Source: a virus | DNA: 64,000 bases | Virus record (IMG/VR): IMGVR_UViG_3300046710_000057 | Coordinates: 22,339-86,338 of that record | Reading direction: 5' to 3' (one strand) | Shown here: positions 25,930 through 56,680 of the stretch, one piece after another | Layout: each line of letters starts with the position of its first letter | How positions within the stretch are numbered: position 1 is the stretch's first letter | The notes under the pieces: model-generated | What the model was told of the DNA's origin: nothing | What the model saw: only the letters and a program-made list of their open reading frames with translations | Database searches by the model: none | Made by a program: the position numbers and the translations under genes

Positions 25930-26457
25930 CTATTGATTGGTTTGCGTGTTGTGCCACCTTTTACCATTGACAATTCGGCTAATTTGGACTTGAGACACTC
26001 CAAACATATCTGCTAATTGATATTGGTTGTATGTCTTTGCACCGTATAATCGGCGAATCTCAATGATCTGAGGCTCAGTCAACCTAGCAATGCCATTGCT
26101 CTCCCCACTGTTGTCTGGTATAACCAATCTACCCTTATTGTCTCTGTCATGCATGTTGTCTAAGTGAGTTCCAAGAAACAAATGAGCAGGATTACAACAA
26201 GGCGGATTGTCACAGGTATGAAGAACGTCTAGTCCTTTTGGAATTGGTCCATTAGTCAGTTCCCAAGCTACTCGATTTGCTCTTTGACCACGCAGTTGTG
26301 GACTTACAAAGAAATGACCATAGCCATCTTTATTGCGACCAGCTTGCCATTCCCAACAATCATCAGGATTGCCAATATGGACTTTGGACCAAAATCGTTG
26401 CGACATTGGAATGTTCATAACAGTGGTGTTACGAGGATTTGTGGATTCTAGTTCCAA
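25930..26457 (-). CDS. HNH homing endonuclease with C-terminal HTH (copy 1)
   Basis: RFWSKV, CWEW, LHTCDNPPCCNPAHL, DN..D. Confidence 0.9.
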   Translation of the reverse strand: MELESTNPRNTTVMNIPMSQRFWSKVHIGNPDDCWEWQAGRNKDGYGHFFVSPQLRGQRANRVAWELTNGPIPKGLDVLHTCDNPPCCNPAHLFLGTHLDNMHDRDNKGRLVIPDNSGESNGIARLTEPQIIEIRRLYGAKTYNQYQLADMFGVSQVQISRIVNGKRWHNTQTNQ

Positions 26458-28107: not shown

Positions 28108-28182
28108 TGGTAGCGCGACGGAGAGTTGAACTCCGACCAGGTGAGTGAAAGTCACCTATCCTATCCGTTGGACCACCGCGCC
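28108..28182 (-). tRNA. tRNA-Glu(TTC)
   Basis: Cloverleaf; anticodon arm GGTGA-CTTTCAC-TCACC; T-loop GTTCAA; encoded CCA. Confidence 0.95.
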
Positions 28183-28191
28183 AAAATTAAG

Positions 28192-28263
28192 TGGGCTTGG
28201 AGAGAATCGAACTCTCGACCCTTCGGTTAAAAGCCGTCTGCTCTGCCACTGAGCTACAAGCCC
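28192..28263 (-). tRNA. tRNA-Lys(TTT)
   Basis: GGGCTTG acceptor, TAGCTCAG, CTTTTAA loop, GTTCGATT; no encoded CCA. Confidence 0.92.
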
Positions 28264-28337
28264 TGGCTCCAGCGGCAGGACTCGAACCTGCGATGGGCGA
28301 TTAACAGTCGCCTGCCTTGCCACTTGGCGACGCTGGA
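28264..28337 (-). tRNA. tRNA-Asn(GTT)
   Basis: GGCGA-CTGTTAA-TCGCC; GTTCGAGT; encoded CCA abuts tRNA-Lys. Confidence 0.95.
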
Positions 28338-28342
28338 ACGAA

Positions 28343-28756
28343 TCACGAAGTCAATTGATAATCTTTTGCCCATCGTATTCTGACAACGTTATTGTTGAGA
28401 GGTGGGTCCACTCGAAGGCTACAATGAGACACCGGACATTCGCTTACTAGTATCGTGTACACCTTGTCAGTATCAGGGCAATACACAGCGAACATTTCAA
28501 TTTCACCTGTGTAGCTTTTCCGTTTTCCACCACGATGGGTATACGAACTTGATGCCGGAAACGTTATCACACCATCAACCAAGTTACCGGTTTTACACTG
28601 CACTCGTGTAAAGATTCCACCATCATCTATAACTAGGTCATACCGTTGATTATCGCCGAATGGAAGCAACACCACTTTACCTGCACGTATGAGTTCAGCT
28701 AAGATGATTGCTTGGCTTTTGTCTCCAACATCTTTTGTGTTCACAACAACTCCCAC
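28343..28756 (-). CDS. PD-(D/E)XK endonuclease, group I intron-associated type, free-standing
   Basis: GDKSQA..LAEL, RYDLVID, RVQCKTG. Confidence 0.85.
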   Translation of the reverse strand: MGVVVNTKDVGDKSQAIILAELIRAGKVVLLPFGDNQRYDLVIDDGGIFTRVQCKTGNLVDGVITFPASSSYTHRGGKRKSYTGEIEMFAVYCPDTDKVYTILVSECPVSHCSLRVDPPLNNNVVRIRWAKDYQLTS

Positions 28757-28760
28757 ATAT

Positions 28761-29005
28761 AAGCGGACTGGCGACCTGCGATTTTACCAGCAGCAGGATG
28801 CCGAACCTAATTCGACTTTTGGTTGTTTTACCTTGAGTGTCTTACCTCTGTAATCTCTCGGTGGTTTTTACTCGCCAGCCCTTATCGAAGAGAGCAAGAG
28901 AACCTACAGCATCGGAAGCAGTTCTCCGCTTGCACGCATTAACGAAGTTGCTAATCTCCGTCCGATTTCGCCCCTACTCACGTAAGATGCTCTCCTCAAC
29001 TCTGA
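28761..29005 (-). ncRNA. Candidate structured RNA with long-range pseudoknot
   Basis: No credible ORF; three 7-bp helices found by eye. Confidence 0.45.
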
Positions 29006-29008
29006 GTT

Positions 29009-29084
29009 TGGCTGCCCCACTACGACTCGAACGTAGAATCTCTTGGTCCAAAGCCAAGCGTGCTGCCAATTGCACCATAGGGCA
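29009..29084 (-). tRNA. tRNA-Gln(TTG)
   Basis: CTTGG-CTTTGGA-CCAAG; GTTCGAGT; encoded CCA. Confidence 0.95.
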
Positions 29085-29087
29085 AAG

Positions 29088-29258
29088 CTACTCCAGTGGA
29101 TTCTCCCACTGATCGTCAGTCAGCCAACGGATAGCTGCTTCGATTCCCTGCTCGTATGTCATACCAGGGTACTTGCTGCCGCCATCGTTGATCTGATCAG
29201 AACACTTATTCAGGAGGTCATCAACCTCTTCTTCTTTGCGGACTATCTCTGTACTCAT
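29088..29258 (-). CDS. Small acidic phage protein (not in ORF track)
   Basis: MSTEIVRKEEEVDDLL...YPGMTYEQGIEAAIRWL; GAGG RBS. Confidence 0.65.
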   Translation of the reverse strand: MSTEIVRKEEEVDDLLNKCSDQINDGGSKYPGMTYEQGIEAAIRWLTDDQWENPLE

Positions 29259-29443
29259 TTTTGTTCCTCTTGAAGACCAAGCGCCTTGATGATATACGAC
29301 TCAGGAACAATGTATCTCCTGCCAATCTTTGTTGCAGGGATAACACCATTCTTGACTGACGAGTAGGCGAGACAGCGTGAGATACCTAGCAGGGTGGCTG
29401 TCTCCTCAACGGTGAATGTTTGCTTTTCAATTGTGATTTGCAT
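29255..29443 (-). CDS. Excisionase-like HTH DNA-binding protein
   Basis: FTVEETATLLGISR...GVIPATKIGRRYIVP. Confidence 0.85.
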   Translation of the reverse strand: MQITIEKQTFTVEETATLLGISRCLAYSSVKNGVIPATKIGRRYIVPESYIIKALGLQEEQK

Positions 29444-29444
29444 G

Positions 29445-29888
29445 TTACTGGCCTGTCCCTCCATACTCGTAGGGAATGCCCCCCAAGTCCTTGAAAATCT
29501 TCATGATGAACCTTTGCGGTATTGCCGCCATGAACGACTTGTCGCGAACAAGAAGACGATACTTCTTGCCAGGAACGAGCTTCTTGTATATCTCGCCAGT
29601 CGTGACACACGTCTCGCCTTCCAGCGAAACAATGAAAAGCGTCTGATTGTAACTCACTGTAGCTGGCTCATTATTGATTGTATACGTCTTGATCGTCACT
29701 GGACGTTCCGTGATGAACTTGTAGGAAACCCTTCGATCAACAGTGTCCGTCCAATAGTGAGGGTCATACCAGAGTGAGTAGTCTGGCATATTGTCAATGT
29801 TGTTCTGTGGTACTTCACGAACAACTGCCTCTGCGTAGACTGACGTTACCATCAGCATAAACATAAAGACAAAGAGTGCTTGCTTCAT
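29445..29888 (-). CDS. Secreted hypothetical protein
   Basis: AAGGAG RBS then signal peptide MKQALFVFMFMLMVTSVYA; the ORF-track extension into tmRNA is unlikely. Confidence 0.65.
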   Translation of the reverse strand: MKQALFVFMFMLMVTSVYAEAVVREVPQNNIDNMPDYSLWYDPHYWTDTVDRRVSYKFITERPVTIKTYTINNEPATVSYNQTLFIVSLEGETCVTTGEIYKKLVPGKKYRLLVRDKSFMAAIPQRFIMKIFKDLGGIPYEYGGTGQ

Positions 29889-30031
29889 TCTAGTGCTCCT
29901 TGCATTCTTCCCATTCGTCGTTGTCCATCTGTCCATCTGTTGACGCCGCTTCACTTTACGTTTGGCCCAAGTCCGTTTGTGCCAATCACGCATATACGCT
30001 TTTTCGTCTTCTTCGTTCTTGTATGACATAT

Positions 30032-30347
30032 TGGTGGAGGTGGCGAGACTCGAACTCGCGTCCGAAAAGTTCAATCCCAAACATCTACGAGTGTGTTTAC
30101 TGTTTCTTCTGCCTTGCCTATGGTCAGTAACTAGCCAGCATCGTCTTTATGGAATCACTGTTCCTGGCTTTGGGTTATACGGTAGCCAGAAGACCGCAAT
30201 CGTCAGAGACCCCAATGGAGTCAATCTGGTCGATAATTGACTGTGAAACGTTCGCTTTTGATTGTTTGATAGATTCTTAACGAGGCCAACTATCATCCTC
30301 GACTCGCAGTTTGTTCGATTCCTCTCCGTCGATTCCAATTCACCCCC
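30032..30347 (-). ncRNA. ssrA: tmRNA
   Basis: 5' GGGGGTGAA...TCGACGG; 3' GGACGCGAGTTCGAGTCTCGCCACCTCCACCA with G3.U70; tag frame starting GCG AAC. Confidence 0.93.
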
Positions 30348-30532
30348 ATATTCAATCGCTCAAACCAGACACTTACACTACAGAGTGGGTGTGCTCCGAT
30401 CACCGAACCACGTAATACTGCCGACTTTCCAGGCCGACCGTGCAATTCTACTAGCGATGAGACTGTAATCCCAAGCGTTTCGTATGGCTCTGTGTCTACC
30501 TGTTACAGCAGGTTGTCTGAGCGATTGAATAT
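30348..30532 (-). ncRNA. 185-nt rod-shaped RNA, 6S RNA-like
   Basis: 15-bp terminal inverted repeat, interrupted rod with central bubble; lies between tRNA-like gene and tmRNA. Confidence 0.55.
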
Positions 30533-30535
30533 AGG

Positions 30536-30607
30536 CTCAGGGGAGAGGATTGGCTACCCCCATCACTGCGTTTATCAGACCCAGTGCTCTCGTTGAGCTA
30601 CCCCTGA
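30536..30607 (-). tRNA. Degenerate tRNA-Ile(GAT)-like gene
   Basis: TCAGGGG/CCCCTGA acceptor, GCTC/GAGC D-stem, CTGATAA loop; aberrant T-loop TAGCCAAT; G.G mismatch in anticodon stem. Confidence 0.6.
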
Positions 30608-30614
30608 GACGCTG

Positions 30615-31111
30615 TTACGACGAATGCTTCTCGATTGCCTCGGTCAGTTTCTCTTCGATCTCATCACTGATACCGAGGTGCATAACGGTAGCACCGCCTT
30701 CTTCTTCCATCGTCGTTCGCTTGCCGATCATACTTCTGGCAGTCTCAATGCCGCCTCTTACGCCACCAGCATGGATTATTTGGATTGCTTCGTTGTTGAC
30801 CTCACCAGTGGACCGGAGCGAGTCTATGACCACCTTAGCTGCACCGTCGCCGTTGTCACGATCATAACCCCAAGGGTCGATCTGATCTTTGGCAATATCG
30901 ACCTTCATAACTCTGCCTACCAGGTAGTCAAAGTAGAGGCGTCCTACTCCAACAATTGTCTGAGCGGCTTCGACAGTCATTGGGGCAGGGTCATACTGCA
31001 TGAATCCCATCCCCTGCGGCCTAGCTGCATTATACAATGCCGCTAATACTGCCGCCTTGTCGAGTCCAGCGATGTCTATGACTCGAAAATTGTCTACTTC
31101 CTCTGTTTGCA
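30615..31111 (-). CDS. Hypothetical phage protein
   Basis: IDIAGLDKAAVLAALYNAARPQGMGF...; AAAGGA RBS. Confidence 0.7.
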
Positions 31112-31133
31112 TTGTGTTGTCCTTTCGTAGATT

Positions 31134-31449
31134 ATTATGCCGGTTCCTGTTCAACCGGCTAAGTCACCTGTCTGTTCCAGGGTCAACGGCTTTTTACAGG
31201 CTCGTCCTGTCTTCGGATTATTTCACCGTGCCGTACCACGCGAACACTTTGGGCCAGAGGTTGTTATCGGTCACTGACAAAAATCGAACCTTAGCAAGTT
31301 GTCAGTCTTGCCAACTTTGACTGGCCCTAGATGGCAGTGAGGTTCAGTATCGCCTCAAAGCCAACCTTTGCAGAGATGGGGTTACCAGTGTAGTCGTCTT
31401 TTTCCCCATAAGACAGACTGACAGGGCTTGCACTAAAAGCCTCTGCAAA
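31134..31449 (-). ncRNA. Candidate multi-domain structured RNA
   Basis: ORF-free; 9-bp, 6-bp and two 7-bp helices. Confidence 0.5.
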
Positions 31450-31450
31450 T

Positions 31451-31592
31451 TGATAGGGGCCAAGGAATTGAACCTTTGCTCTTACTCCTTTTCGTAAGTT
31501 GCTTCAGCGACTAGTACGCTTACTTAACCAACCGTTTGGAAAAGGCGAGAATCGAGAGATTATTCTAGCTTACTCTCTCTCCAATGCCCCCA
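31451..31592 (-). ncRNA. Enlarged tRNA-like RNA (142 nt)
   Basis: Acceptor TGGGGGC/GCCCCTA, T-loop TTCAATT, inserted D-loop and variable arm. Confidence 0.55.
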
Positions 31593-31596
31593 CGAA

Positions 31597-31721
31597 CTCC
31601 CTTACCCACCTTCGTTCAATACTTCTTTTTTAGCTACTGTCAGGTAACTGTTAGTCCGTGCTGACACACCGCTAAACCGGCCTTCCCTTGACCGGAGTCT
31701 GAACGAAGGTGGGTAAGAGAG
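31597..31721 (-). ncRNA. Candidate structured RNA closed by an 18-bp perfect helix
   Basis: cttacccaccttcgttca (31601-31618) pairs with tgaacgaaggtgggtaag (31700-31717). Confidence 0.5.
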
Positions 31722-31731
31722 CTTGCGCTCT

Positions 31732-31899
31732 CTAAGAGTACATCTCAGGGTCCATATCGAACTCTTCCTTGCACTCTATGTCATCGAAGTAATACTTCTT
31801 GCCGTTGTAGGTGCATTGAATTGCCGAATCGTTAGCAACCACAGTCATGCCACAAACAGGACAAGAAGTAATATTGTTATCTCTATCTTCTTCCAACAT
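31732..31899 (-). CDS. YHS domain protein (not in ORF track)
   Basis: CPVCGMTV...YNGKKYYF..IECKEEFDMDPEMY. Confidence 0.8.
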   Translation of the reverse strand: MLEEDRDNNITSCPVCGMTVVANDSAIQCTYNGKKYYFDDIECKEEFDMDPEMYS

Positions 31900-33598: not shown

Positions 33599-34837
33599 TT
33601 ATTTGTTTCGCCCAAATACGAGCGAGACATTGAATCCGCCGAATCCAAAACTGTTGGAAAGCACTGTATTGACTTCCCAACTCATTCCTTCATTGCAAAC
33701 GATCTTGCTTGGATTGAACTTGCTATCCAAACATTCGACGTTGATAGTCGGCGGAATATAGTTGTGTTGAATTGCTCCAATAGAGATCAGAGCTTCTATC
33801 GCGCCTGCTGCGCCTTGCATGTGACCGGTAACCGGCTTGGTCGAACTGACAAGCTGAAAGATAACTGGGCCAAACCCACTAGGAAACAACTCTTCAATTG
33901 CCCCCATTTCAGCTTCGTCGCCTTGGATAGTTCCAGTTCCATGTGCGTTGATATAATCAACGTTGATTGGTTGAATACCTGCGCTTTGCAGGGCGAGCCT
34001 CATAGCGTCGTATGCACTGTCAGCGTCAGACTGAACTACAGACATCGAGCTTGAAGCTGTGCCGTAGCCGAGGACTTCTGCATATATATACGCTCCTCGT
34101 CTTTGTGCGTGTTCCCATTCTTCTAAAACGAAGATTGTTGCTCCTTCGCCAAGAACAAAACCAGATCGGTTTTTGTCGAATACTTGATATTTGTCATCTC
34201 GTGACAACGCTCGAATTGTATCAAATCCGACATGGATAAACGGTACAATCGGATTGTCTGACCCACCGGTTACTACTACATCCAGAGACCCACTGCGAAT
34301 CATTCTGAATGCCTCTCCAATAGCATGACCACCACTGGCACAAGCTGAAGAGACCGTAAACGATGGGCCTTCAATCTTCAGGTCCATTGATACAGAGGCA
34401 GCAATCATACCTTGAGAGCCATTGTTGAAGTGGGAGTCCACTCGACCGGTTGACACAAATCGGTCATAGTGTTTGAATGCTATTTCCATAGCGCCCATAC
34501 TTGAACCAATCACTACGCCAACACGATGAAGATTGATGTAAGCATCTGGGCGGTTGTCCGGCGTACAACTATCTTTCCAAGCGTTACGTGCAGCGATCAT
34601 AGCATACAACGACACTTTATCTTGTGATGTTCGTTGTTTGATTGGAATATCGTCCAGAAACGACAAATCCTTGATCTCTGCTGCAATTTGCGCGTGACAA
34701 GTTGTAGCGTCAAACCTTGTGATTGGTCCAACTCCAGACTTTCCTTCGCTGACTGCCTTCCATACCTCTTCAGGGGTGTTGCCAACCGGACTGACTACGC
34801 CGATACCAGTGACGGCAACTCGTTTGTTTACGAACAT
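33599..34837 (-). CDS. fabF: 3-oxoacyl-ACP synthase II
   Basis: RVAVTGIG, SACASG (Cys), NAHGTGT (His), K..TGH..GAAG (His), SNSFGFGG. Confidence 0.95.
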   Translation of the reverse strand: MFVNKRVAVTGIGVVSPVGNTPEEVWKAVSEGKSGVGPITRFDATTCHAQIAAEIKDLSFLDDIPIKQRTSQDKVSLYAMIAARNAWKDSCTPDNRPDAYINLHRVGVVIGSSMGAMEIAFKHYDRFVSTGRVDSHFNNGSQGMIAASVSMDLKIEGPSFTVSSACASGGHAIGEAFRMIRSGSLDVVVTGGSDNPIVPFIHVGFDTIRALSRDDKYQVFDKNRSGFVLGEGATIFVLEEWEHAQRRGAYIYAEVLGYGTASSSMSVVQSDADSAYDAMRLALQSAGIQPINVDYINAHGTGTIQGDEAEMGAIEELFPSGFGPVIFQLVSSTKPVTGHMQGAAGAIEALISIGAIQHNYIPPTINVECLDSKFNPSKIVCNEGMSWEVNTVLSNSFGFGGFNVSLVFGRNK

Positions 34838-44966: not shown

Positions 44967-45382
44967 TTGATTCCTCCTTCAAACTCTTTGAGCTTGATGA
45001 CAGACTGCTATTCAACCGACGTTTAGGCGGTAGCTCGACATAACACTCGTCAGTGGTTGCTTCGGCCCCATCAATTCCTTAGCAGTCTGTCATTAAACCC
45101 ACAGAGAAGCAGCCTGCTTACTAGATCGACTACCTTCCAGCAAAGCAGGCTGCCATTCCAATTAGTTGTTCAGTCAAATAATGTGAACTCGGATTTACCG
45201 TCTCTCGACTTTACCTGCCCATGTCACACCTCCTGAAGCCTTGGTAGGGCTTACACATTAAGTACAACCCAAGCTCCCTTGATGAGCTTGATGCTGGGTT
45301 GGTTTCCCAAAGACTTGGGGTACAGGCATACGCCAATCCCAATTTTTGGTTGGCACAGCCCAGCATTAAGCCCACCGATGGG

Positions 45383-45865: not shown

Positions 45866-45970
45866 ATGGGGTAAGGAGGAATCGAACCTCACATAGCGAG
45901 CAGGGTAGGTTTTCTAGCAGCCACCCTGTCGATTCGAGTCTTGCTAGAAGCTAACTCCCTTCTACCCCAT
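45866..45970 (-). ncRNA. tRNA-like RNA with acceptor and T arms but a pseudoknot/switch in place of the anticodon arm
   Basis: ATGGGGTAG/TTACCCCAT stem; GAGG-TTCGATT-CCTC T-arm; crossing helices TTCTAGCA/TGCTAGAA and CAGGGTG/TACCCTG. Confidence 0.6.
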
Positions 45971-54794: not shown

Positions 54795-55095
54795 GCTCTC
54801 AAAGTGGGGCGACGCTCCTCAAGCTACAGTGGTCGGAAACAAAGCTGCAAACTATGGCGGAAACCACCATCCCAGGGCTTGAAAAATCTGGTCGTGTGTC
54901 GCCCCACTTTTGGAGCTTTCCCTGATCACCAAGAGATTGACCAACACGGAACGACTCGGTGGAGACGGTTTCAGCATCCACTTGATCAGGGAACTTTTGA
55001 TAAATGTGGAGCGTAGTAAGAAATGCGTTCCTAGCGCAAGAAGCCCTCAGAGTTCACAAATACACGTCCGAGAACTACATCCTCTGAGGGCTTCT
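54795..55095 (+). ncRNA. Candidate structured RNA with three long helices upstream of the ACP-like gene
   Basis: 13-bp, 11-bp and 14-bp perfect inverted repeats. Confidence 0.45.
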
Positions 55096-56533: not shown

Positions 56534-56680
56534 GTGGGAGTAGTTTAATACAAAGGCTGAACGGAATAAGGTACTGTCCTTGCATGAAGAGTAGTCTACC
56601 ATGCGAGTGTAGGCAAAACGTCTAGGTAGCGTAAGACCGGTTCAACCTAGAAGTTGGGGGTTCGATTCCCTTCTCCCACT
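56534..56680 (+). ncRNA. Enlarged tRNA-like RNA (147 nt)
   Basis: GTGGGAG/CTCCCAC acceptor; GGGGG-TTCGATT-CCCTT T-arm; about 65-nt structured D-loop insert; 7-bp anticodon stem with 17-nt loop. Confidence 0.6.

What the first reader, a model, noticed from the sequence alone, without database searches (positions are those of the whole stretch)
28108..31721. RNA cassette in which tRNA-like modules punctuate unknown ncRNAs
Seen, in transcription order: 125-nt RNA, enlarged tRNA mimic, 315-nt RNA, ORF, degenerate tRNA-Ile, 185-nt rod, tmRNA, ORFs, tRNA-Gln, 245-nt RNA, nuclease, then tRNA-Asn/Lys/Glu. Several junctions are 0-3 nt (tmRNA/rod, rod/tRNA-Ile, mimic/315-nt RNA, Asn/Lys). Established: RNase P and 3' tRNA processing can release flanking RNAs (tRNA punctuation). 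Inference: the phage uses real and fake tRNAs as cutting signals to mature a set of novel regulatory RNAs.
Basis: partly seen in the sequence, partly recalled or inferred. Interest (0 to 1): 0.78.

Follow-up and report, generated by a model that had tools for sequence, protein, structure and literature searches.

The report
Phage tRNA/tmRNA island with tRNA-like RNAs
An uncultured peat-bog phage packs four tRNAs, a worn-out fifth tRNA, a tmRNA, an oversized tRNA look-alike and two very stable hairpin RNAs between small genes, much like the long-known but unexplained tRNA region of phage T4, so it is interesting but not a new kind of system.

Summary
The listed elements are mostly real. On the minus strand lie tRNA-Glu, Lys, Asn and Gln, a tmRNA (113 bits), seven small ORFs with ribosome-binding sites, and an I-Ssp6803I-type PD-(D/E)XK nuclease. 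Spacers are 0-10 nt.

- The "degenerate tRNA-Ile" passes Rfam's tRNA threshold (32.7 vs 29 bits) when scanned alone.
- "Mimic 1" is tRNA-like only in its acceptor stem and T-arm. Three such oversized modules occur in the genome, against 0.26 expected by chance.
- The 125-nt element and the "rod" fold exceptionally well (z -8.2 and -4.1). Each is closed by a 21-22-bp helix that ends flush with its tRNA-type neighbours.
- The "315-nt" and "245-nt RNAs" are best read as 5' leaders of the next ORFs.

No Rfam family matches any spacer. No homologue turned up in phage, viral-contig or metagenome searches, because the phage has no close relatives. No RNA run was listed, so processing and function remain inferred.

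The closest known case is the T4 tRNA cluster: tRNAs, the segB homing nuclease, and the stable RNAs rnaD and rnaC. rnaC is 139 nt with a T-arm and an acceptor-like stem. This scan has reported similar tRNA-scaffold RNAs in many other phages.

Verdict: a plausible tRNA-punctuated operon. The claim of "novel regulatory RNAs" is unproven.

The parts
31597..31721 (-). 125-nt 'panhandle'. A 22-bp closing helix (arms 31700-31721 and 31597-31618, 18 bp perfect) encloses an 81-nt branched interior. It begins 10 nt after the YHS ORF stop and ends 4 nt before mimic 1. It has no U-tract, so it is not an intrinsic terminator.
   Evidence: z -8.2 and -7.8; inverted repeat I1; 2nd most stable of 12,852 windows; no terminator call
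31453..31592 (-). Oversized tRNA-like RNA ('mimic 1', 139 nt plus discriminator). Acceptor UGGGGGC/GCCCCUA, T-arm AAAGG-UUCAAUU-CCUUG (4 of 5 pairs), no encoded CCA, non-tRNA body.
   Evidence: strict acceptor + T-arm scan; GGTTCRATT motif; body not unusually stable; no RF00005 match; no single deletion restores a tRNA
31113..31452 (-). It contains hairpin 31329-31366. It also contains a tRNA-sized closed helix, 31251-31327 (GGGCCAG/CUGGCCC), with a T-loop-like GGUUCGAUU at 31282-31290; this may be a tRNA relic.
   Evidence: (z -1.7), (SNPs at 31273, 31336, 31343, 31352 and a 1-nt insertion; variant haplotype strengthens the hairpin from -14.1 to -18.6 kcal/mol)
30615..31112 (-). ORF of 165 aa with an AAGGA ribosome-binding site and no known family. 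Homologues at 39-61% identity occur in other phage contigs; 6 of the 23 metagenome loci have a tRNA in the fetched flank.
   Evidence: (no family)
30536..30607 (-). Degenerate tRNA-Ile(GAU). Cloverleaf with anticodon loop CUGAUAA, a short D-loop without GG, an 8-nt non-canonical T-loop UAGCCAAU, discriminator G, no CCA.
   Evidence: RF00005 32.7 bits, gathering score 29; missed by ARAGORN and by filtered scans
30348..30535 (-). 188-nt spacer ('rod'). A 21-bp closing helix (arms 30515-30535 and 30345-30365, 15 bp perfect) starts right after the tRNA-Ile-like discriminator and ends 3 nt inside the tmRNA. The interior is multibranched.
   Evidence: z -4.1; folds as its own domain in 601-nt context; inverted repeat I4; no Rfam match, 6S included
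30032..30347 (-). tmRNA with encoded CCA. The predicted tag is 26 aa and ends in LLATV.
   Evidence: RF00023, 113 bits; tag read from the sequence
29445..29888 (-). ORF of 147 aa with a signal-peptide-like N-terminus and an AGGAG ribosome-binding site. The frame stays open up to the ATG at 30029. Orphan.
   Evidence: no homologue among 5.8 billion clusters
29255..29443 (-). HTH_17 / excisionase-like 62-aa ORF. It is absent from one strain variant.
   Evidence: run X5 joint 29252 to 29452
29088..29258 (-). ORF of 56 aa, no family.
29009..29084 (-). tRNA-Gln(UUG), CCA encoded, 3 nt after the preceding stop codon.
28757..29008 (-).
   Evidence: z -2.9; no Rfam family, no group I intron
28343..28756 (-). 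PD-(D/E)XK nuclease of the I-Ssp6803I (homing endonuclease) type. It is free-standing between intact tRNA-Gln and tRNA-Asn.
   Evidence: PDDEXK_5, E 3.7e-36; PDB 2OST, E 5.8e-5
28108..28337 (-). tRNA-Asn(GUU), tRNA-Lys(UUU), tRNA-Glu(UUC), with spacers of 0 and 8 nt. The next ORF's ribosome-binding site overlaps the CCA of tRNA-Glu.
45868..45968 (-). Second oversized acceptor/T-arm module (101 nt), outside the finding, directly upstream of an ORF.
56534..56680 (+). Third oversized tRNA-like module (146 nt). It has a perfect acceptor stem, U8-A9 and T-arm, an insert of about 65 nt in the D-loop, and a 17-nt anticodon-position loop.
   Evidence: (15.4 bits for its 3' part)

Best explanation
This is a T4-style phage tRNA/tmRNA island, transcribed with its small ORFs as one precursor and cut up by the host's tRNA-processing enzymes. 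The tRNA-shaped modules are four tRNAs, a degenerate tRNA-Ile, a tmRNA and one oversized tRNA-like RNA.

RNase P would cut at the 5' side of each tRNA-shaped module, and RNase Z, RNase E or exonucleases would trim the 3' side. The pieces in between are of different kinds:
1. Mimic 1 is a tRNA-scaffold stable RNA of the T4 rnaC kind. Its acceptor stem and T-arm give it processing and stability; its cargo has no known function.
2. The 188-nt 'rod' is the spacer between the tRNA-Ile-like gene and the tmRNA. It would be released with both ends locked in a 21-bp helix, so it should resist exonucleases. It is also long enough to be an RNase III site.
3. The 125-nt panhandle has no cutting signal on its 5' side. 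It most likely stays on the upstream mRNA as a protective 3' cap after RNase P cuts at mimic 1, or it serves as an RNase III site.
4. The 340-nt and 252-nt stretches are 5' leaders of the 165-aa ORF and of the homing-type nuclease.

Shown here: the elements, their spacing and the stability of their folds. Inferred: co-transcription, every cleavage, and any function of the released pieces.
For: - tRNAs and tmRNA.
- tRNA-Ile-like above the Rfam threshold.
- All elements and ORFs lie on one strand with spacers of 0-10 nt, and every ORF has a Shine-Dalgarno sequence.
- Promoter- and terminator-like sites are at chance level, and none sits between the modules on the minus strand.
- Oversized acceptor/T-arm modules: 3 observed against 0.26 expected. 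All three lie in ORF-free gaps on the local coding strand.
- GGTTCRATT occurs 4 times in the window, only at non-coding sites with tRNA-like features: the three oversized modules and the possible tRNA relic in the 340-nt stretch.
- The closing helices of 22 and 21 bp end flush with the neighbouring tRNA-type elements.
- Fold z-scores are -8.2 and -4.1, and the panhandle ranks 2nd of 12,852 windows.
- T4 has the same layout: 7 tRNAs, segB, tRNA-Arg, rnaD 1 nt later, rnaC 6 nt later. rnaC is 139 nt with T-arm CCGGG-UUCGAAU-CCCGG and an acceptor-like stem.
[quoted passage not shown] They have been detected by Northern blot (PMC9697503).
- The nuclease is of a homing-endonuclease type, as segB is in T4.
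- One strain lacks the HTH ORF, which shows gene flux typical of such islands.
- Three linked substitutions in hairpin 31329-31366 all keep or extend pairing.
Against: - No transcript evidence of any kind is available for this phage.
- No homologue of any spacer RNA or of mimic 1 was found, so there is no covariation support for any of the folds.
- Mimic 1's T-stem has only 4 of 5 pairs, and its body folds no better than shuffled sequence.
- None of the tRNA-like modules encodes CCA, unlike 3 of the 4 real tRNAs and the tmRNA.
- A 17-bp perfect inverted repeat with an 84-nt loop lies inside a 1327-aa ORF. Long helices in this genome therefore need not mark RNA genes.
- Perfect long helices could come from a recent inverted duplication rather than from selection.
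Confidence: 0.55

Rival explanations
1. The 125-nt element, the rod, and the 315-nt and 245-nt pieces are dedicated trans-acting regulatory RNAs. The real and fake tRNAs exist to release them.
For: - Extreme fold stability of the 125-nt element and the rod.
- Helix ends coincide exactly with tRNA-type boundaries, so the excised rod would have closed, nuclease-resistant ends.
- Substitutions that preserve structure in one hairpin of the 315-nt stretch.
- Precedent: stable T4 RNAC and RNAD from a tRNA cluster.
Against: - No Rfam family at E<=10, and no 6S match for the rod.
- No homologues anywhere.
- The 125-nt element has no 5' cutting signal.
- The 315-nt and 245-nt stretches run without a terminator or a tRNA-like module into the next ribosome-binding site, and they fold weakly.
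- Similar panhandles lie elsewhere in the genome, away from tRNAs, and one is inside a gene.
Confidence: 0.2
2. Evolutionary debris. The spacers and tRNA-like modules are decaying tRNA genes and scars of mobile-gene traffic (homing nucleases, small ORFs) in a fast-changing tRNA island. They have no function of their own.
For: - The tRNA-Ile-like gene is clearly degenerate in its T-loop, D-loop and discriminator.
- A half T-arm, TCGATTCTCGCC, lies inside mimic 1 (repeat family D2).
- The 315-nt stretch holds a T-loop motif and a tRNA-sized closed helix, and it has the highest SNP and indel density.
- Two homing-type nucleases lie nearby: PDDEXK_5, and HNH_3 at 25930-26457.
- An ORF presence/absence difference between strains.
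Against: - Closing helices of 18 and 15 perfect base pairs, and their exact registration with tRNA and tmRNA ends, are not what random decay produces.
- Small-window RF00005 scans find no further tRNA relics in the gaps.
- Three independent oversized modules keep a perfect 7-bp acceptor stem and a canonical T-loop.
Confidence: 0.15
3. The long helices are features of the DNA, not of RNA. Examples would be nuclease or recombinase recognition sites, or hairpins used in replication or packaging.
For: - Perfect inverted repeats of 13-18 bp are over-represented genome-wide: 18 of at least 12 bp, against about 1 in shuffles. They are not limited to the tRNA island.
- Nuclease genes lie adjacent.
Against: - The repeats share no sequence motif.
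- The two in the cassette are flush with RNA-gene boundaries, and G-U pairs extend them on the transcribed strand only. That points to RNA.
Confidence: 0.07

Closest known systems
Phage T4 tRNA gene region: 8 tRNAs, the segB homing endonuclease, and the stable RNAs rnaD (species 2, 119 nt) and rnaC (species 1, 139 nt). NC_000866 70908-72530.
   Same: - A co-oriented tRNA cluster with a free-standing homing-type nuclease gene in the middle.
- Small non-tRNA RNAs abut tRNAs by 1-6 nt.
- rnaC, like mimic 1, is about 139 nt, with a canonical T-arm, an acceptor-like stem and a non-tRNA body.
- Function is unknown after decades of study (PMC3014915).
   Different: - No sequence similarity to rnaC.
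- The island here also carries a tmRNA, a degenerate tRNA, several small ORFs and two long closed-helix spacers that T4 lacks.
- The nuclease is PD-(D/E)XK, not GIY-YIG.
- Accumulation of these RNAs has not been shown here.
tRNA punctuation and tRNA-linked release of RNAs: the mitochondrial polycistron model, and spacer-derived RNAs of bacterial tRNA operons such as 3'ETS-leuZ (from my own knowledge, not checked here).
   Same: tRNA-shaped structures abut other genes by 0-10 nt, so RNase P and RNase Z cuts define the neighbours' ends.
   Different: No end-mapping data exist for this phage. Here the modules include non-decoding tRNA look-alikes.
tRNA-scaffold or 'tRNA-chassis' RNAs of phage tRNA clusters, as noted repeatedly by this scan on other genomes (for example e1-5410580, e1-4040420, e1-5382776).
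   Same: The acceptor stem and T-arm are kept, and the anticodon or D region is replaced or expanded by a folded insert. They are located in phage tRNA islands.
   Different: No shared sequence with those windows. Membership of their tRNA-Leu-derived family was not tested.
RNase III processing stems, such as those flanking rRNAs in rRNA operons and the T7 early-mRNA sites (from my own knowledge).
   Same: Closing helices of 21-22 bp flank an excisable interior and sit next to tRNA-type genes.
   Different: No cleavage data. The helices here are near-perfect, without the internal loops typical of the T7 sites.
I-Ssp6803I (PDB 2OST), the PD-(D/E)XK homing endonuclease encoded in a group I intron of a cyanobacterial tRNA-fMet gene (the intron context is from my own knowledge).
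   Same: The nuclease family and the association with tRNA genes.
   Different: No group I intron is detected, and both flanking tRNAs are intact. The gene is free-standing.

Membership tests
tRNA (Rfam RF00005): tRNA-Ile-like 30536-30607 | Covariance-model score at or above the gathering score (29 bits) over the full model | tested here: met
   32.7 bits, model positions 1-71, E 8.7e-6 in a 96-nt scan. Missed in larger scans because of the filters.
tRNA (Rfam RF00005): tRNA-Ile-like 30536-30607 | Canonical elbow: GG in the D-loop and a 7-nt UUCRANY T-loop | tested here: not met
   The D-loop is AACGA without GG, and the T-loop is the 8-nt UAGCCAAU (alignment). ARAGORN does not call it.
tRNA (Rfam RF00005): mimic 1 31453-31592 | Match to the tRNA covariance model | tested here: not met
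   No clan match at E<=10 in a 623-nt scan. No single deletion makes ARAGORN call a tRNA.
tmRNA (Rfam RF00023) | Full-length model match above the gathering score (47 bits), a tRNA-like domain with CCA, and a tag reading frame | tested here: met
   113 bits, model positions 1-374. Tag ORF of 26 aa read from the sequence.
T4 rnaC-type stable RNA of phage tRNA clusters | Oversized RNA (about 100-150 nt) with an acceptor-like stem and a canonical T-arm, inside a phage tRNA island on the tRNA strand | tested here: met
   Mimic 1 is 139 nt, with 7/7 acceptor pairs and T-loop UUCAAUU. T4 rnaC was read for comparison.
T4 rnaC-type stable RNA of phage tRNA clusters | Sequence homology to rnaC | tested here: not met
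   blastn (distant mode) of the region against 50,697 phage records gives only tRNA hits or none. rnaC homologues were found almost entirely in phages of enterobacteria.
T4 rnaC-type stable RNA of phage tRNA clusters | Accumulates as a discrete stable RNA during infection | not testable with these tools
   No RNA run was listed for this uncultured phage.
6S RNA (Rfam RF00013): the 'rod' | Match to the 6S model; a single long rod with a central bubble | tested here: not met
   No Rfam match at E<=10 in a 201-nt scan. The minimum-energy fold is multibranched.
Group I intron carrying a homing endonuclease | Intron core (RF00028) and a split host gene | tested here: not met
   No match. tRNA-Gln and tRNA-Asn are intact on either side.
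Y RNA / YrlA with Ro60 | A TROVE (Ro60) gene in the genome and a YrlA model match | tested here: not met
   No TROVE domain in the 128.6-kb genome. RF02553 gives only a sub-threshold hit, and it lies on real tRNAs.
tRNA-punctuated polycistron | tRNA-type elements directly abut the other genes on one strand, without intervening promoters or terminators | tested here: met
   Spacers of 0-10 nt. Promoter- and terminator-like sites are at chance level.
tRNA-punctuated polycistron | Mature RNA ends coincide with the tRNA boundaries | not testable with these tools
   No RNA data.
Intrinsic terminator: the 125-nt element | GC-rich hairpin followed by a U-tract | tested here: not met
   The helix is followed by UUCGUGGGGGC. 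The terminator scan does not call it.

The most novel reading that the evidence does not exclude
The phage makes a set of 'closed-end' small RNAs. These are the 188-nt spacer between the tRNA-Ile-like gene and the tmRNA, possibly the 125-nt panhandle, and three tRNA-scaffold RNAs. Their ends would be defined by tRNA-processing enzymes, and their terminal helices or tRNA chassis would make them stable effectors, for example decoys for host RNases, RNase P, CCA-adding enzyme or anticodon nucleases. The degenerate tRNA-Ile would be kept only as a cutting signal for the tmRNA and the spacer.
Probability: 0.2. Interest if true: 0.65.

Novelty: new variant of a known kind. Interest (0 to 1): 0.4.

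Why it matters
Phage tRNA islands have been known since the 1970s to encode stable non-tRNA RNAs (T4 RNAC and RNAD) whose roles are still unknown. This island adds three things to that picture: a tmRNA, a degenerate tRNA that may survive only as a processing signal, and spacers whose two ends are locked in helices exactly flush with the tRNA boundaries.

If such pieces accumulate, they would show that phages use the host's tRNA-maturation machinery as a general factory for small RNAs. That would also give a handle on what these RNAs do. As it stands, the case rests on anatomy alone, in an uncultured phage with no known relatives.

Tried and rejected
- **Homologue searches for the RNAs.**
  - megablast and blastn against phages gave only tRNA hits or nothing.
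  - nhmmer and blastn of each segment against all fetched loci and the phage's own genome gave nothing.
  - A tmRNA 5'-end pattern gave 0 hits in viral contigs. It gave 4 unrelated MAGs in genome contigs, which says nothing about the host.
- **Relatives through proteins.**
  - FabF and DnaE gave no viral-contig relatives.
  - The best non-self FabF hits are about 45% identical and bacterial.
  - The 147-aa ORF has no homologue.
  - Homologues of the 165-aa ORF (39-61% identity) do not carry the RNAs.
- **Record-level searches.** The metagenome records behind my loci are not held.
- **RNA evidence.** No RNA holder was listed for either query.
- **Strain variation.** Laying contigs of four peat DNA runs gave near-identical strains with too few differences for covariation.
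- **Rfam.** No family matched any spacer. That covers 6S, group I intron, self-cleaving ribozymes, Y RNA, ROOL and GOLLD.
- **Readings considered and rejected.**
  - Mimic 1 as two tandem decayed tRNAs, or as a tRNA with one insertion: deletion scans with ARAGORN never restore a tRNA.
  - The panhandles as MITE-like repeats: each is single-copy and they share no sequence.
- **Function of the 165-aa ORF.** No lead from Pfam, PHROGs or the ESM Atlas.
- **Own tRNA covariance model.** The MAFFT alignment was structurally off register, so no model was built.

Full report
**Source.** The window is part of a 128,636-bp IMG/VR virus record. Near-identical strains occur in five peat metagenome runs. 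GC content is about 48%, and genes lie on the minus strand up to about 52 kb. The phage has no close relatives. Its FabF-like gene has no relative above about 45% identity among 5.8 billion protein clusters. Its DnaE and FabF have no relatives in viral contigs. The 147-aa ORF is an orphan.

**Observation, in transcription order on the minus strand.**
1. YHS-domain ORF 31899-31732.
2. 10 nt of spacer.
3. A 125-nt panhandle, 31721-31597.
4. 4 nt of spacer.
5. An oversized tRNA-like module, 31592-31453.
6. A 340-nt ORF-free stretch.
7. A 165-aa ORF, 31112-30615.
8. 7 nt of spacer.
9. A tRNA-Ile-like cloverleaf, 30607-30536.
10. A 188-nt structured spacer, 30535-30348.
11. The tmRNA, 30347-30032.
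12. Three small ORFs: a 147-aa secreted-looking orphan, an HTH_17 protein and a 56-aa ORF.
13. 3 nt of spacer.
14. tRNA-Gln, 29084-29009.
15. A 252-nt ORF-free stretch.
16. A PD-(D/E)XK nuclease, 28756-28343.
17. 5 nt of spacer.
18. tRNA-Asn, then tRNA-Lys (0 nt spacer), then tRNA-Glu (8 nt spacer).
19. 10 nt of spacer, then the next ORF.

Every ORF has a Shine-Dalgarno sequence.

**The real RNA genes.** The four tRNAs score 56-62 bits and the tmRNA 113 bits. ARAGORN misses the tmRNA. Gln, Asn, Glu and the tmRNA encode CCA. Lys does not, nor does any of the tRNA-like modules.

**The degenerate tRNA-Ile.** Whole-window and 4-kb Rfam scans and the whole-genome search all missed it. A 96-nt scan gives 32.7 bits against RF00005, above the gathering score of 29, over the full model. 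Its anticodon loop is CUGAUAA (anticodon GAU). The D-loop lacks GG, the T-loop is an 8-nt UAGCCAAU, and the discriminator is G. It is tRNA-derived, but it probably does not work as an ordinary elongator tRNA.

**The oversized tRNA-like module.** I scanned the whole genome for a specific combination: a 7/7-paired acceptor stem flush with a T-arm (G53, TTCRANN, C61, at least 4 of 5 stem pairs), within 55-160 nt.
- The scan returns the four tRNAs plus three oversized modules: 31454-31592 (139 nt), 45868-45968 (101 nt) and 56534-56679 (146 nt).
- 300 shuffled genomes give a mean of 0.26.
- All three lie in ORF-free gaps on the local coding strand.
- GGTTCRATT occurs four times in the window, all at non-coding sites with tRNA-like features.

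So the acceptor/T-arm 'chassis' is real. The body of mimic 1 is not unusually stable (z -0.9). RF00005 does not match it. No single deletion turns it into a tRNA.

**The structured spacers.**
- The 125-nt element has a 22-bp closing helix, 18 bp of it perfect. Its z-score is -8.2, and it is the second most stable of 12,852 130-nt windows in the genome. It has no U-tract.
- The 'rod' has a 21-bp closing helix. The helix starts at the nucleotide after the tRNA-Ile-like discriminator and runs 3 nt into the tmRNA's 5' GGG. Its z-score is -4.1, and its interior is multibranched rather than rod-like.
- A spacer whose first and last 20 nt pair, exactly flush with two tRNA-type genes, is not a chance arrangement.
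- The 340-nt and 252-nt stretches fold only weakly to moderately (z -1.7 and -2.9). They run straight into the next ribosome-binding site.
- In the 340-nt stretch, three linked substitutions in a strain haplotype all fall in unpaired positions of one hairpin (31329-31366). Two of them create new wobble pairs, taking the fold from -14.1 to -18.6 kcal/mol. This is weak evidence that this one hairpin is maintained.
- The same stretch holds a T-loop-like GGUUCGAUU inside a tRNA-sized closed helix (31251-31327). It also has the highest SNP and indel density. It may be a tRNA relic.

**What the spacers are not.** No Rfam family matches any of them at E<=10, even in small-window scans with lax filters. 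That covers 6S, group I intron, ribozymes, Y RNA, ROOL and GOLLD. The genome has no Ro60/TROVE gene. The elements are single-copy and have no look-alike in 50,697 phage records.

Long closed helices are a wider habit of this genome. There are 18 perfect inverted repeats of at least 12 bp within 300 nt, against about 1 in shuffles. They include panhandles at 44993-45097 and 54797-54914, and a 17-bp repeat inside a 1327-aa ORF. This weakens the step from 'long helix' to 'dedicated RNA gene'.

**Comparison with the known.**
- The T4 tRNA region (NC_000866) reads Gln-Leu-Gly-Pro-Ser-Thr-Ile, then segB (a homing endonuclease), then tRNA-Arg, then rnaD 1 nt later (119 nt), then rnaC 6 nt later (139 nt).
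- Read directly, rnaC has the T-arm CCGGG-UUCGAAU-CCCGG followed by CGUUUCG, which pairs with the 5' CGAUUCG. That is the same chassis and the same length as mimic 1.
- Reviews state that RNAC and RNAD come from the tRNA region and that their roles are unknown (PMC3014915). They have been detected by Northern blot (PMC9697503).
- The nuclease here belongs to the I-Ssp6803I homing-endonuclease family, an HNH_3 nuclease lies 2 kb downstream, and one strain lacks the HTH ORF. This is the gene flux typical of such islands.
- After I had reached T4 independently, the scan's own notes showed that tRNA-chassis RNAs have been reported in many other phage windows, with T4 rnaC as the usual comparator. 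None shares sequence with this window.

**Mechanism.** The best-supported reading is a polycistronic precursor cut at every tRNA-shaped module by RNase P (5' side) and RNase Z, RNase E or exonucleases (3' side).
- Mimic 1 would be a tRNA-scaffold stable RNA.
- The rod would be an excised spacer with closed ends, or an RNase III site.
- The 125-nt element would be a 3' cap on the upstream mRNA.
- The two long stretches would be 5' leaders.

All cleavages are inferred. No RNA run was listed and no relatives exist for covariation analysis.

**Verdict.** This is a new variant of a known kind (the T4-type tRNA island with stable tRNA-like RNAs). Interest is moderate.

Noticed in passing
L011:1760-1946 (metagenome contig Ga0265297_10007871): A complete tRNA-Val(CAC) with CCA sits inside a tRNA-Met(CAT)-like gene, flanked by a perfect 14-bp helix (CCCCCACAAATTTT / AAAATTTGTGGGGG). 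Deleting exactly 112 nt just after the anticodon, at or next to the canonical 37/38 intron site, makes ARAGORN call a 75-nt tRNA-Met. This is a 'tRNA within a tRNA' about 250 nt downstream of a homologue of the window's 165-aa ORF.
   Followed up: partly
window 29252-29452: In one peat run (X5) a contig joins 29252 to 29452 with 6 other letters in between. That strain therefore lacks the HTH_17 ORF. The island varies by whole small genes between near-identical strains.
   Followed up: no
window 30536-30607: Rfam's speed filters hid a tRNA that scores above the gathering threshold in the 64-kb, 4-kb and whole-genome scans. It appeared only in a 96-nt scan. Other degenerate tRNAs may be missed in the same way elsewhere.
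   Followed up: yes
window 44993-45097, window 54797-54914, and G000:C1:89638-89763: Further single-copy panhandles: closing helices of 13-17 perfect bp around 69-84 nt. The last one lies inside a 1327-aa ORF. Perfect inverted repeats are about 15-fold over-represented genome-wide.
   Followed up: partly
window 30175-30255: The tmRNA tag reading frame gives a 26-aa tag ending in LLATV rather than the usual ...LAA. ARAGORN does not detect this tmRNA at all.
   Followed up: no
window 31251-31327: A tRNA-sized element closed by GGGCCAG/CUGGCCC. It holds an 8-bp hairpin whose loop contains CUGACAA (anticodon-loop-like, GAC) and a GGUUCGAUU T-loop motif. It may be a decayed tRNA inside the '315-nt RNA'.
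   Followed up: partly
window 31722-31736: A GNRA-tetraloop hairpin, GAGAGC-GCAA-GCUCUC, lies right after the YHS stop codon. It competes with the outer 5 bp of the 125-nt panhandle helix (CUCUC/GGGAG), so two alternative folds are possible.
   Followed up: no
L007, L008, L011, L015, L024, L025: 6 of the 23 metagenome loci holding homologues of the unannotated 165-aa ORF have a tRNA gene in the fetched flank, from under 100 nt to about 1.1 kb from the ORF. The gene family seems to travel with phage tRNA islands.
   Followed up: partly
L007:1685-1802: A LOOT RNA (Rfam RF03000, 61 bits) lies in an unrelated phage-like metagenome contig that also carries a homologue of the 165-aa ORF.
   Followed up: no
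window 33599-34837: The phage encodes a full-length beta-ketoacyl-ACP synthase II (FabF-like). It is only about 45% identical to any other protein in the database.
   Followed up: no
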